Made by a program: the position numbers
DNA from: Escherichia coli
GTDB taxonomy: Bacteria > Pseudomonadota > Gammaproteobacteria > Enterobacterales > Enterobacteriaceae
NCBI RefSeq assembly: GCF_050320075.1
Contig: NZ_CP190018.1
Strand: one strand, 5' to 3'
DNA: 64,000 bases
Shown: piece after piece, positions 15,601 to 17,864 of the stretch
Numbering within the stretch: position 1 is the stretch's first letter
How the letters are laid out: the number at the start of each line of letters is the position of its first letter

Positions 15601-17864
15601 AACGCCCGATCGCCCGCCATAAACTCCCGGCTTTGCTGGCTTAAGCCCTTCTCCATGCGATCGCTGATATTGCCCAGCGCCAGCACGCAGGCCACCGCCA
15701 GGCTTAGCGCCAGCCAGACAATTAATAGCGACGGCGAGCGCCATTCGCGCCAGAACCAACGTGCAATCATGCTTCCTCCTGCAACTGCCCGTTCACCAGC
15801 CGTAAGCAGCGGTCGCAGCGTGCCGCCAGTTGCAGGTCGTGGGTCACCATAATCAACGTGGTGCCATGCTCACGGTTGAGGGAAAACAGCAGGTCGGCAA
15901 TTTTATCGCCCGTCTGGCGGTCAAGGTTGCCGGTGGGTTCGTCGGCAAACAGCACATCAGGTCGACCGTTAAAGGCTCGCGCCAGCGCCACTCGTTGCTG
16001 TTCGCCGCCGGAAAGCTGTGCCGGAAGATGATCAAGACGTTTACCCAGCCCTAACTGTTCGAGCAACGCTTTCGCCCCGTTACGACTTTCCGCGCTACTC
16101 TCACCGCGCAGCAGCGCCGGAAGCTCGACGTTTTCCAGCGCGTTAAGGGTAGGAATTAACATAAATGACTGAAAAACAAAACCTACGTGCTTCGCGCGCA
16201 ACTTTGCCCGCGCTTCTTCGTCCATATTATGTAGCGGTTGTCCCACCAGACTCACTTCGCCACTGCTGCCGTCATCCAGCCCGGCGAGGATTGCCAGCAA
16301 GGTTGACTTACCCGATCCCGACTCACCCACCAGTGCGATGGTCTCGCCACGTTTGACAACCAGCTCAACTCCGGTGAGGATGGAGAGTTCATGCTCCCCC
16401 TGACCGACGGACTTCTTAAGATGATGAACTTCAACAATGTTTTCCGCTGGCATTTGCCCTTCCTGTTCCTGGTCCTGTTAACCTTCCGTGCCGCCGCAGC
16501 GGACACGTTATTGATTCTGGGTGATAGCCTGAGCGCCGGGTATCGAATGTCTGCCAGCGCGGCCTGGCCTGCCTTGTTGAATGATAAGTGGCAGAGTAAA
16601 ACGTCGGTAGTTAATGCCAGCATCAGCGGCGACACCTCGCAACAAGGGCTGGCGCGCCTTCCGGCTCTGCTGAAACAGCATCAGCCGCGCTGGGTGCTGG
16701 TTGAACTGGGCGGCAATGACGGTTTGCGTGGTTTTCAGCCACAACAAACCGAGCAAACGCTGCGCCAGATTTTGCAGGATGTCAAAGCCGCCAACGCTGA
16801 ACCATTGTTAATGCAAATACGTCTGCCTGCAAACTATGGTCGCCGTTATAATGAAGCCTTTAGCGCCATTTACCCCAAACTCGCCAAAGAGTTTGATGTT
16901 CCGCTGCTGCCCTTTTTTATGGAAGAGGTCTACCTCAAGCCACAATGGATGCAGGATGACGGTATTCATCCCAACCGCGACGCCCAGCCGTTTATTGCCG
17001 ACTGGATGGCGAAGCAGTTGCAGCCTTTAGTAAATCATGACTCATAAAGCAACGGAGATCCTGACAGGTAAAGTTATGCAAAAATCGGTCTTAATTACCG
17101 GATGTTCCAGTGGAATTGGCCTGGAAAGCGCGCTCGAATTAAAACGCCAGGGTTTTCATGTGCTGGCAGGTTGCCGGAAACCGGATGATGTTGAGCGCAT
17201 GAACAGCATGGGATTTACCGGCGTGTTGATCGATCTGGATTCACCAGAAAGTGTTGATCGCGCAGCCGACGAAGTGATCGCCCTGACCGATAATTGTCTG
17301 TATGGGATCTTTAACAATGCCGGATTCGGCATGTATGGCCCCCTTTCCACCATCAGCCGTGCGCAGATGGAACAGCAGTTTTCTGCCAACTTTTTCGGCG
17401 CACACCAGCTCACCATGCGCCTGTTACCCGCGATGTTACCGCACGGTGAAGGGCGTATTGTGATGACCTCATCGGTGATGGGATTAATCTCCACGCCGGG
17501 TCGCGGCGCTTACGCAGCCAGTAAATATGCGCTGGAGGCGTGGTCGGATGCGCTGCGCATGGAGCTACGCCACAGCGGAATTAAAGTTAGCCTGATCGAA
17601 CCCGGTCCCATTCGTACTCGCTTCACCGACAACGTCAACCAGACGCAAAGTGATAAACCTGTCGAAAATCCCGGCATCGCCGCCCGCTTTACGTTGGGGC
17701 CGGAAGCGGTGGTCGACAAAGTGCGCCATGCTTTTATTAGCGAGAAACCGAAGATGCGCTATCCGGTAACGCTGGTGACCTGGGCAGTAATGGTGCTTAA
17801 GCGCCTGCTGCCGGGGCGCGTGATGGACAAAATATTGCAGGGGTAAGTTGAAGCGCGCGCTTAA

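What the first reader, a model, noticed from the sequence alone, without database searches (positions are those of the whole stretch)
16421..16453. Divergent tesA and ybbA coding regions overlap by 33 bp at their 5' ends
With the experimentally supported 208-aa TesA precursor start (MMNFNN...) at 16421 and the 228-aa YbbA start at 16453 on the opposite strand, the first 11 codons of each gene are encoded on opposite strands of the same DNA. Their promoters must therefore lie inside each other's coding sequence, which suggests transcriptional interference between the thioesterase and the ABC transporter.
Basis: partly seen in the sequence, partly recalled or inferred. Interest (0 to 1): 0.25.

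Follow-up and report, generated by a model that had tools for sequence, protein, structure and literature searches.

The report
Head-to-head overlap of tesA and ybbA
Two E. coli genes that face away from each other, tesA (a lipid-cutting enzyme) and ybbA (part of the pump that enzyme docks onto), really do share their first 10-11 codons on opposite DNA strands and are each switched on from inside the other, but this is already annotated and published and no regulatory effect has been shown.

Summary
tesA (+, ATG 16421 or 16424) and ybbA (-, ATG 16453) overlap head-to-head by 33 or 30 bp, exactly as annotated in K-12 and in RefSeq.

Both starts are well supported. ybbA has no other possible start. 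The tesA ATG, and the His codon each ATG imposes on the partner gene, are kept in all 16 Enterobacterales sequences compared.

Published genome-wide maps already place each promoter inside the other gene:
- The tesA start of transcription is at 16389, 64 nt inside ybbA, behind TTGACA-N17-GAGGAT.
- Weak ybbA starts lie 155-569 nt upstream of its ATG, inside tesA.

The overlapping RNAs form RNase III-cut double-stranded RNA. The pair is listed among 16 "divergent excludons" of MG1655, and a 2025 structure paper notes the operon overlap. So the finding is already known.

Interference itself is unproven. Both mRNAs are detected together, RNase III mutants do not raise them, and the products form one complex.

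What I add: the gene pair has little or no spacer in most sampled Gammaproteobacteria (often the two start codons share one CATG). ybbA codons 12-33 show excess synonymous conservation that ends at the tesA -35 box. Interest is low.

The parts
16421..16453 (.). Shared 33 bp: tesA codons 1-11 (+) and ybbA codons 1-11 (-), in the same triplet register (30 bp if tesA starts at 16424).
   Evidence: Synonymous codon identity is 0.95 in both genes across 16 Enterobacterales sequences.
16421..17047 (+). tesA coding sequence (208-aa precursor; mature protein from Ala27). Alternative in-frame starts are 16424 (PGAP), 16391 (not conserved) and TTG 16454 (rejected).
15767..16453 (-). ybbA coding sequence (228 aa), the ATPase of the YbbAP type VII ABC transporter. 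ATG 16453 is the only possible start.
   Evidence: It is 100% identical to the YbbA chain of PDB 9GE6, 9GE7 and 9GE8.
16353..16358 (+). -35 hexamer TTGACA of the tesA promoter, encoded on the opposite strand by ybbA codons Val32-Val33-Lys34.
   Evidence: It lies in the 51-nt upstream sequence given for the mapped transcription start. T(T/C)GACA sits at the same position in 16 of 16 Enterobacterales sequences. Codon identity is 1.00 at these three codons and drops to 0 at the next one.
16376..16381 (+). -10 hexamer GAGGAT (3 of 6 matches, with A2 and T6), 17 bp from the -35, lying in ybbA codons Ile25-Leu26.
   Evidence: It is too weak for the simple scanner, which found nothing.
16389..16420 (+). 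tesA 5' leader (32 nt), running from the mapped transcription start at 16389 to the ATG. It lies wholly inside ybbA codons 12-22.
   Evidence: Kim 2012 transcription start at 519021(-), 45 reads, UTR 32 nt. It matches the dsRNA boundary at 519020. The leader has no significant fold.
16457..16464 (-). ybbA Shine-Dalgarno AGGAAGGG, lying inside tesA signal-peptide codons 13-15.
   Evidence: sequence; -7.0 kcal/mol. It is contained in a p19-captured 21-nt RNA duplex at 518933-518954.
16454..17022 (-). Long ybbA-direction leader or antisense RNA across tesA. Mapped starts are at 16608, 16795, 16840 and 17021/17022 (a further one lies at 17242 in ybbO).
   Evidence: Kim 2012, Cappable-seq, and Conway's promoter at 518389. 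Antisense reads over tesA are 48.7 RPM against 29.7 RPM sense.
16390..16918 (.). Region where sense/antisense double-stranded RNA was captured: dsRNA immunoprecipitation locus 16390-16515, p19 cluster 16453-16726, and individual RNase III duplexes out to 16918.
   Evidence: Huang 2020 supplementary tables, which also carry the Lybecker 2014 data.

Best explanation
This is a genuine head-to-head overlap of two real genes that have no spacer between them.

Shown by published maps:
- tesA is transcribed from a sigma-70 promoter buried in ybbA codons 22-34 (TTGACA-N17-GAGGAT, start at 16389, 32-nt leader).
- ybbA-ybbP is transcribed from several weak starts 155-569 nt upstream of its ATG, inside or just beyond tesA. 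Its leader is therefore antisense to most or all of tesA.
- The two promoter sets fire toward each other. The two RNAs are complementary over at least 220 nt and up to about 630 nt (Conway's operon map gives 789 nt), and they form duplexes that RNase III cuts.

Shown here:
- The 33/30-bp coding overlap is the Enterobacterales version of an old arrangement. In most sampled Gammaproteobacteria the two start codons abut or share a CATG.
- The tesA-upstream part of ybbA carries extra synonymous constraint that ends at the -35 box.

Inferred:
- In Enterobacterales the tesA start moved about 31 nt upstream into ybbA, lengthening the first part of the signal peptide.
- The regulatory consequence is at most a mild mutual dampening (polymerase collisions or occlusion, plus antisense pairing over the ybbA ribosome-binding site). 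It is not an on/off switch, because the promoters are weak and the products must be made together.
For: - Annotation and sequence.
- Start codons: ybbA has a single candidate start. The tesA Met1/Met2 and the reciprocal His codons are kept in 16 of 16 sequences. Rahnella has a stop codon directly before MMNF, so its tesA start cannot lie further upstream.
- Mapped transcription starts: tesA 519021, 45 reads; ybbA 518802 and 518570, 2 reads each; 518615, 518388, 518168.
- Transcript overlap and dsRNA: tesA gives 182-2396 RPM of p19-captured dsRNA, against 6-86 RPM for its three neighbouring genes. Also cluster S-52, Lybecker locus MS-118 and Conway's 789-nt divergent overlap. ExcludonFinder lists the pair.
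- Promoter conservation: the same -68/-45 hexamers occur in 16 of 16 Enterobacterales sequences.
- Synonymous constraint: ybbA codons 12-33 score 0.74, against a background mean of 0.51 and a maximum of 0.61 over 173 windows.
- Within E. coli: the 116-bp core is >=99% identical in 5409 of 5417 genomes, against 1521 of 5418 for the surrounding 1.4 kb.
- Deep conservation: all 80 fetched loci have tesA divergent from ybbA-ybbP. The distance between conserved protein cores is <=230 nt in 62 of 81 sequences. The predicted starts overlap, abut, or lie <=19 nt apart in 67 of 80.
- Weak effect: sense mRNA levels are unchanged or lower in rnc-14 and rnc-38 mutants. TesA and YbbAP form one complex.
Against: - No experiment on this locus measures one gene's output when the other's promoter is silenced, so 'mild effect' is an inference.
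- The ybbA transcription starts rest on very few reads (2 each; Cappable-seq scores 1.5-2.5) and differ between studies. Conway's map puts the tesA-side boundary at 519178 (window 16232) rather than 519021.
- The strand column of Huang's Table S1c disagrees with Table S1b for several genes, including ybbA. The very low antisense count over ybbA (0.5 RPM) should therefore be used with care.
- Start codons outside E. coli are rule-based predictions, not measurements.
- ExcludonFinder's single-cell analysis reports, for excludons as a class, less co-expression than for controls. That would favour real mutual exclusion.
Confidence: 0.7

Rival explanations
1. True excludon. The overlapping, convergently firing promoters and the long antisense ybbA leader make tesA and ybbAP expression mutually exclusive in single cells, through transcriptional interference plus RNase III cleavage of the duplex.
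For: - The pair is one of 16 divergent excludons in MG1655, found in at least 50% of 58 transcriptomes.
- As a class, excludon pairs are co-expressed less often in single cells.
- Antisense RNA over tesA is as abundant as sense RNA, and tesA is a strong local dsRNA hot spot.
- The spacer-less arrangement is conserved across Gammaproteobacteria.
Against: - TesA docks on YbbP and the two co-evolve, so exclusive expression would defeat complex formation.
- Both sense mRNAs are present at similar levels in bulk RNA and do not rise in RNase III mutants.
- The promoters are weak, so collisions should be rare.
- No locus-specific test exists.
Confidence: 0.17
2. Neutral compaction. The overlap and the embedded promoters are a frozen accident of losing the spacer in a tightly linked gene pair. 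The overlapping transcripts and dsRNA are by-products with no effect on fitness or expression, and sequence conservation in the core simply reflects double coding.
For: - Synonymous constraint of 0.95 in the shared codons is what dual coding alone predicts.
- There is no excess constraint in tesA codons 12-33, where the ybbA ribosome-binding site lies.
- RNase III mutants show no change.
- Thirteen of 80 sequences have ordinary spacers of 25-442 nt, so the tight junction is dispensable.
Against: - The excess synonymous conservation of ybbA codons 12-33, ending exactly at the -35 hexamer, shows selection on embedded expression signals. These signals are not neutral, although this does not show cross-talk between the genes.
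- The same CATG junction is retained despite different core-to-core distances (193-220 nt) in many families.
Confidence: 0.1
3. Annotation artefact. One gene really starts further downstream (tesA at TTG 16454, or ybbA at an internal codon), so the coding regions do not overlap.
For: - Public databases hold 194- and 197-aa TesA models that begin MPFLFL..., at the TTG directly after ybbA's ATG.
- K. pneumoniae tesA is annotated at 594 nt.
Against: - Those short models are what Prodigal must produce, because it forbids overlaps between the 5' ends of opposite-strand genes.
- The TTG has no Shine-Dalgarno (-0.9 kcal/mol).
- It is not a start codon in 8 of 16 Enterobacterales sequences (TGG, CTT, CTC, TTT, TTA).
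- It would leave the signal peptide with no charged N-region.
- ybbA has no alternative start at all.
- The transcription start at 16389 gives a normal 32-nt leader to ATG 16421.
Confidence: 0.03

Closest known systems
Divergent excludons (concept from Listeria; catalogued for E. coli MG1655 by ExcludonFinder, NAR 2025, PMC12288877)
   Same: Neighbouring divergent genes whose transcripts overlap at their 5' ends. One of them (ybbA) has a long leader antisense to the other gene, and RNase III-cut dsRNA is detected. tesA-ybbA is explicitly on the published list.
   Different: Classical excludons pair genes with opposing functions and show reciprocal expression. Here the products are subunits of one complex, both mRNAs coexist in bulk RNA, and RNase III loss does not raise them. 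Reciprocal expression is untested for this pair.
5'-overlapping divergent mRNA pairs that give p19-captured or antibody-captured dsRNA in E. coli (for example asd-yhgN and rsd-nudC; Huang 2020, Lybecker 2014)
   Same: Same data sets and same signature: dsRNA concentrated where divergent transcripts overlap. tesA-ybbA is cluster S-52 and locus MS-118, class 'Divergent'.
   Different: In most such pairs only the untranslated leaders overlap, or a leader overlaps a coding sequence. Here the two coding sequences themselves overlap by 30-33 bp, and the overlap of the RNAs covers essentially all of tesA.
Transcriptional interference between face-to-face (convergent) promoters, the framework reviewed by Shearwin, Callen and Egan in 2005 (cited from my own knowledge)
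   Same: The geometry matches. The tesA promoter (start at 16389, reading rightward) and the ybbA promoters (starts at 16608-17022, reading leftward) fire toward and across each other.
   Different: Documented cases involve at least one strong promoter and a measured cis effect. Here all promoters are weak and no cis effect has been measured.
YbbAP-TesA type VII ABC transporter-hydrolase complex (PLoS Biol 2025, PDB 9GE6, 9GE7 and 9GE8)
   Same: These are the same proteins: YbbA is 100% identical, and TesA residues 27-208 are identical. [quoted passage not shown]
   Different: The paper uses the neighbourhood only as evidence for a protein interaction. It does not analyse start-codon overlap, embedded promoters or antisense RNA.

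Membership tests
Head-to-head (divergent) overlapping protein-coding genes | Both overlapping reading frames are real, expressed genes. | tested here: met
   Both match solved structures. Homologues are found across Gammaproteobacteria.
Head-to-head (divergent) overlapping protein-coding genes | Both true start codons lie upstream of the partner's start codon. | tested here: met
   ybbA has a single candidate start. The tesA ATG is conserved in 16 of 16 sequences, with the reciprocal His codons and a mapped transcription start 32 nt upstream. This is comparative and transcript evidence only. I found no direct N-terminal or initiation-site data.
Divergent excludon | Divergent neighbours whose transcripts overlap at their 5' ends. 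| tested here: met
   Published transcription starts, operon map, dsRNA loci and ExcludonFinder list, all re-read here.
Divergent excludon | A long leader of one gene runs antisense through the other gene. | tested here: met
   ybbA-direction starts lie 155, 342, 387 and 569 nt upstream of its ATG, all inside tesA. Antisense reads over tesA are 48.7 RPM.
Divergent excludon | The sense/antisense duplex is processed by RNase III. | tested here: met
   21-22-nt duplexes captured by p19 at five or more positions in tesA. Per-gene dsRNA is 182-2396 RPM.
Divergent excludon | Reciprocal or mutually exclusive expression of the two genes. | not testable with these tools
   No per-pair single-cell or perturbation data are available. 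Indirect evidence points against it: similar bulk mRNA levels, no rise in rnc mutants, and products that form one complex.
Transcriptional interference between convergent promoters | Promoters are arranged so that polymerases from each traverse the other. | tested here: met
   The tesA start at 16389 (+) faces ybbA starts at 16608-17022 (-).
Transcriptional interference between convergent promoters | Activity of one promoter lowers output of the other in cis. | not testable with these tools
   This needs promoter-knockout reporter constructs. I found none published for this locus.
Back-to-back bidirectional promoter region | The two transcription starts diverge from a shared untranscribed spacer. 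| tested here: not met
   There is no spacer, and the mapped starts cross each other.

The most novel reading that the evidence does not exclude
The spacer-less head-to-head junction of tesA and ybbA may be a selected coupling device rather than a frozen accident. The junction often consists of two start codons sharing one CATG and is kept across Gammaproteobacteria despite indels on both sides. Embedding each gene's promoter and ribosome-binding site in the partner, and pairing the 5' ends of the two mRNAs, could tie together the output of a membrane transporter and the periplasmic hydrolase that docks on it, for instance to set their ratio or to prevent free TesA. Automated gene callers that forbid 5'-5' overlaps would have hidden this class of junction.
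Probability: 0.15. Interest if true: 0.45.

Novelty: already known. Interest (0 to 1): 0.15.

Why it matters
As a discovery it matters little. The overlap is in the reference annotation. The embedded transcription starts, the antisense RNA, the dsRNA and the 'excludon' label are all in published data sets.

Three practical points are worth keeping:
- The two genes cannot be manipulated independently. Any deletion of tesA that removes codons 2-11 and beyond also removes ybbA's first codons, its ribosome-binding site and all mapped ybbA starts. Any deletion of the 5' third of ybbA removes the tesA promoter, leader and start. Single-gene knockout phenotypes for either gene may therefore be double phenotypes. 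This is relevant now that the proteins are known to work as one complex, and because tesA is heavily used in fatty-acid engineering. I could not check how the Keio alleles were designed.
- Prodigal-type callers cannot output this arrangement, so they truncate TesA to 194-197 aa. The same will apply to the 2-nt CATG junctions in other genera.
- The locus is a clean natural case for testing whether overlapping divergent transcription has any consequence when the two products are partners rather than antagonists.

Tried and rejected
- **Promoter and terminator scan.** The simple consensus scan of 16000-16900 found nothing. The real tesA promoter escapes it because its -10 matches only 3 of 6 positions.
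- **TATTAT at 16225-16230.** I considered it as the tesA -10, because it lies near Conway's boundary at 16232. It is not conserved outside E. coli and E. albertii, and the 5'-RACE start is at 16389, so I treat it as minor at best.
- **Upstream in-frame ATG 16391.** It follows a strong Shine-Dalgarno-like GAGGATGGAGAG (-8.4 kcal/mol). I rejected it as the main start for three reasons. It is missing in Citrobacter sp. FP75, Rahnella and Photorhabdus. The Shine-Dalgarno-like run is the antisense of the conserved YbbA LSILT motif. The mapped transcription start (16389) leaves that run out of the mRNA.
- **TTG 16454 (zero overlap).** Rejected; see the rival explanations.
- **Direct evidence for the starts.** The TRAINSPOTTER N-terminomics supplements have no tesA/ybbA entries or peptides. 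The Ribo-RET preprint has no held supplements.
- **Sources not held.** Conway 2014 supplements, ExcludonFinder supplements, Thomason 2015 and the Keio paper. The stored Cappable-seq file is cut before the K-12 minus strand, so it says nothing about tesA.
- **Other sequence features.** There are no inverted repeats in 16300-16560, no Rfam family in 15700-17900 and no significant fold in the tesA leader (z = 0.34). I found no sign of an operator, riboswitch or structured leader.
- **Promoters in other genera.** Promoter-like hexamers inside ybbA of Vibrio (homologous codons) and Pseudomonas (TTGCTA-17-AATGCT at -48/-25) are recurrent. They are weak matches confounded by protein conservation, and I did not rely on them.
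Full report
**1. What is in the sequence**

The window is an E. coli chromosome. It is 100% identical to strain CFSAN061763, and the region is present in 5418 of 5426 complete genomes.

On the + strand an ORF reads ...K-M-M-N-F-N-N-V-F-R-W-H-L-P-F..., with ATGs at 16421 and 16424 and a stop at 17047. On the - strand an ORF starts at ATG 16453 and ends at 15767. The stretch 16421-16453 (33 bp) is therefore read as codons 1-11 of both genes.

The two frames are in the same triplet register:
- tesA His11 (CAT, 16451-16453) is the ybbA ATG.
- ybbA His10 and His11 (CAT CAT) are the two tesA ATGs.

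K-12 MG1655 annotates exactly this (tesA 519139..519765 -, ybbA 519733..520419 +). PGAP starts tesA one codon later, giving 30 bp. The window and K-12 are collinear here. Literature coordinates (U00096.2) convert as window = 16453 + 518957 - x.

**2. Are the start codons right?**

*ybbA.* ATG 16453 is the only ATG/GTG/TTG between 34 and 70 codons upstream of the Walker A glycine. It is preceded by AGGAAGGG (-7.0 kcal/mol against the anti-Shine-Dalgarno). LolD, MacB and MJ0796 align from YbbA residues 5-10 to their own residues 3-8. No downstream start exists, so the refutation the finder proposed fails.

*tesA.* There are three other in-frame candidates besides 16421.
- **TTG 16454** would give zero overlap. 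It is what several database models use (194 and 197 aa, MPFLFL...). It has no Shine-Dalgarno, is not a start codon in 8 of 16 Enterobacterales sequences, and would strip the signal peptide of its charged N-region. [quoted passage not shown]
- **ATG 16391** has a strong Shine-Dalgarno-like run. It is absent in several genera; in Rahnella a stop codon directly precedes MMNF. The mapped transcription start leaves its Shine-Dalgarno out of the mRNA.
- **16421 versus 16424.** At least one of Met1/Met2 is an ATG in all 16 Enterobacterales sequences. Only Met2 is an ATG in three of them, and only Met1 in three Photorhabdus.

Solved TesA structures begin at Ala27, which fixes the cleavage site but not the initiator. 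I found no direct N-terminal or initiation-site data. The overlap is real; whether it is 33 or 30 bp is open.

**3. Promoters and transcripts (published data, re-read here)**

Kim et al. 2012 mapped transcription starts by 5'-RACE of triphosphate ends:
- A tesA start at 519021(-), with 45 reads and a 32-nt leader. This is window 16389, 64 nt inside ybbA.
- The upstream sequence they list contains TTGACA (16353-16358), then 17 bp, then GAGGAT (16376-16381).
- ybbA starts at 518802 and 518570 (2 reads each; leaders of 155 and 387 nt; window 16608 and 16840).

Cappable-seq adds weak starts on the same strand at 518615, 518388 and 518168 (window 16795, 17022, 17242). The stored file stops before the other strand, so it says nothing about tesA.

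Huang et al. 2020 supplementary tables give the following.

| Measure | tesA | ybbA | ybbO | ybbP |
|---|---|---|---|---|
| p19-captured dsRNA (RPM) | 182-2396 | 11-86 | 9-25 | 6-35 |

- Total RNA over tesA in wild type is 29.7 RPM sense and 48.7 RPM antisense.
- In rnc-14 it is 27.2/18.0, and in rnc-38 it is 27.4/31.7.
- ybbA sense RNA is 21.7, 13.6 and 17.1 RPM in the same three strains.
- RNase III-type duplexes were captured at 518492-518954. One of them covers the ybbA Shine-Dalgarno.
- The tesA-ybbA pair is cluster S-52 (518684-518957), with overlap type '5' & Full'.
- The table also carries the Lybecker dsRNA locus MS-118 (518895-519020, class 'Divergent').
- It carries Conway's + strand operon too: promoter 518389, terminator 522176, with a 789-nt divergent overlap ending at 519178.

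ExcludonFinder (2025) lists tesA-ybbA among 16 divergent excludons of MG1655. [quoted passage not shown]

So each promoter lies inside the other gene, and the RNAs overlap by at least 220 nt (16389-16608) and up to about 630 nt.

One caveat: the strand column in Huang's Table S1c conflicts with Table S1b for several genes, including ybbA. I therefore give little weight to the 0.5 RPM antisense value for ybbA.

**4. What I add by comparison**

A profile of TesA homologues retrieved 80 genome loci, from Escherichia to Pseudomonas, Vibrio, Dokdonella and Massilia. In all 80, tesA is divergent from ybbA-ybbP.

A measure that does not depend on start calls is the distance between the TesA GDS glycine codon and the YbbA Walker A glycine codon. 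It is 192-230 nt in 62 of 81 sequences. About 177 nt of that is needed for the two N-termini.

I also applied a conservative rule, taking the most downstream ATG that keeps the conserved N-terminus. The results for 80 sequences are below.

| Predicted junction between the start codons | Number of sequences |
|---|---|
| Overlap of 2 nt or more | 36 |
| Abutting (0 nt) | 3 |
| Gap of 1-3 nt | 6 |
| Gap of 10-19 nt | 22 |
| Gap of 25 nt or more | 13 |

- Of the 36 overlaps, 18 are exactly 2 nt, with both start codons sharing one CATG. This occurs in Vibrio, Psychromonas, Rheinheimera, Dokdonella, Cycloclasticus, Nitrincola and others, despite core distances ranging from 193 to 220 nt. In Vibrio hepatarius no alternative tesA start codon exists.
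- The other 18 overlaps are 30-39 nt. All Enterobacterales sequences fall in this group.
- The 22 gaps of 10-19 nt include 16 Pseudomonas sequences at 10 nt. There the tesA Shine-Dalgarno GGAG sits directly against ybbA's start (CATGGAG).

Start calls outside E. coli are predictions, not measurements.

Within 16 Enterobacterales sequences I measured codon identity at positions where the amino acid is unchanged:
- It is 0.95 for the shared codons 1-11 in both genes.
- It is 0.74 for ybbA codons 12-33.
- It falls to a background mean of 0.51 (maximum 22-codon window 0.61, n = 173).
- The drop occurs right after Val32-Val33-Lys34 (all 1.00), the codons that spell TTGACA on the other strand.
- tesA codons 12-33 show no excess (0.54 against 0.56).

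The same -35/-10 pair is the best promoter match at the same position in all 16 sequences.

Within E. coli, the 116-bp core is >=99% identical in 5409 of 5417 genomes, against 1521 of 5418 for the surrounding 1.4 kb.

My inference is that the tesA promoter and leader are under selection inside ybbA. I also infer that the Enterobacterales overlap arose when the tesA start moved about 31 nt upstream of the ancestral junction. The frame differs from the CATG type, so an indel was involved. The move added MMNFNNVFRWH to the signal peptide.

**5. How it most likely works**

Shown:
- two real genes with overlapping starts;
- promoters embedded in the partner gene;
- convergently firing transcription;
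- complementary RNAs that are cut by RNase III.

Inferred: the regulatory effect is small. The promoters are weak, both mRNAs are present together, neither rises without RNase III, and TesA must be made with YbbAP to form the complex. A true mutual-exclusion switch remains possible (I give it about 0.17), and pure neutrality about 0.1. There is no operator-like repeat, known RNA family or structured leader in the region.

**6. Comparison with known systems, and verdict**

The locus meets the structural criteria of a divergent excludon: overlapping 5' transcripts, a long antisense leader and RNase III products. The defining reciprocal expression is untested, and the biology argues against it. 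It is not a back-to-back bidirectional promoter.

Everything in the finder's note is already annotated or published, so I rate it 'already known' and of low interest.

The residual value has three parts:
- a practical warning that neither gene can be deleted cleanly without hitting the other;
- the systematic truncation of TesA by gene callers that forbid 5'-5' overlaps;
- the deep conservation of the spacer-less junction, which to my knowledge has not been described.

Noticed in passing
window 16376-16393 (+): An in-frame ATG at 16391 follows a strong Shine-Dalgarno-like GAGGATGGAGAG (-8.4 kcal/mol). It would give a 218-aa TesA (MLPLTDGLLKMMNF...), a form present in some database entries. The mapped transcription start at 16389 puts this ATG at +3 of the mRNA, making it almost leaderless. 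The ATG is not conserved across Enterobacterales.
   Followed up: partly
window 16425 (- strand; U00096.2 518985 +): Dornenburg et al. recorded a transcription start (6 reads, 4 of 6 match to a -10) inside the 33-bp overlap, 28 nt downstream of the ybbA ATG. An RNA starting there could not encode full-length YbbA. Its meaning is unknown.
   Followed up: no
window 16454-16456, and protein entries P0085, P0089, P0066: Public protein collections hold many 194- and 197-aa TesA models that start at the TTG directly after ybbA's ATG. This fits Prodigal's rule that 5' ends of opposite-strand genes may not overlap. The same rule would mis-call the 2-nt CATG junctions seen in Vibrio and other genera.
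   Followed up: partly
window 16982-17047 (tesA codons 188-208) and 17021-17037: Synonymous codon identity rises again to 0.72 in tesA codons 188-198. This lies next to the ybbA-direction transcription start at 17021/17022 (a possible extended -10, TGaTTTACT, at 17029-17037 on the - strand) and to the ybbO start at 17037, which overlaps the tesA stop by 11 nt. The two possible causes were not separated.
   Followed up: partly
L043-L082 (Pseudomonas loci), junction near locus position 3990-4005: In 16 Pseudomonas sequences the junction reads CATGGAGAATCCGATG. The ybbA start codon, a GGAG Shine-Dalgarno for tesA and the tesA ATG are packed into 16 nt. An upstream in-frame ATG also shares the CATG with the ybbA start.
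   Followed up: partly
window 15767-15770 and 19590-19603: There are same-strand overlaps of the usual operon kind: ybbA stop with ybbP start (ATGA, 4 nt), and fetA with fetB (14 nt).
   Followed up: no
window 12644-13355: Between mnmH and ybbP this strain has only a short annotated dinQ-like type I toxin gene (13055-13138). K-12 carries the rhsD element and several further genes at this position.
   Followed up: no
window 24799-50000: A 20.8-kb gene for a BapA/SiiE-like giant adhesin (28137-48911) sits with its type I secretion genes (HlyD-family adaptor, permease/ATPase, TolC-family protein), next to cueR.
   Followed up: no
window 17871-17907: The cnoX reading frame is open from an ATG at 17871, but RefSeq starts the gene at 17907. 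This is another start-codon ambiguity in the same operon.
   Followed up: no
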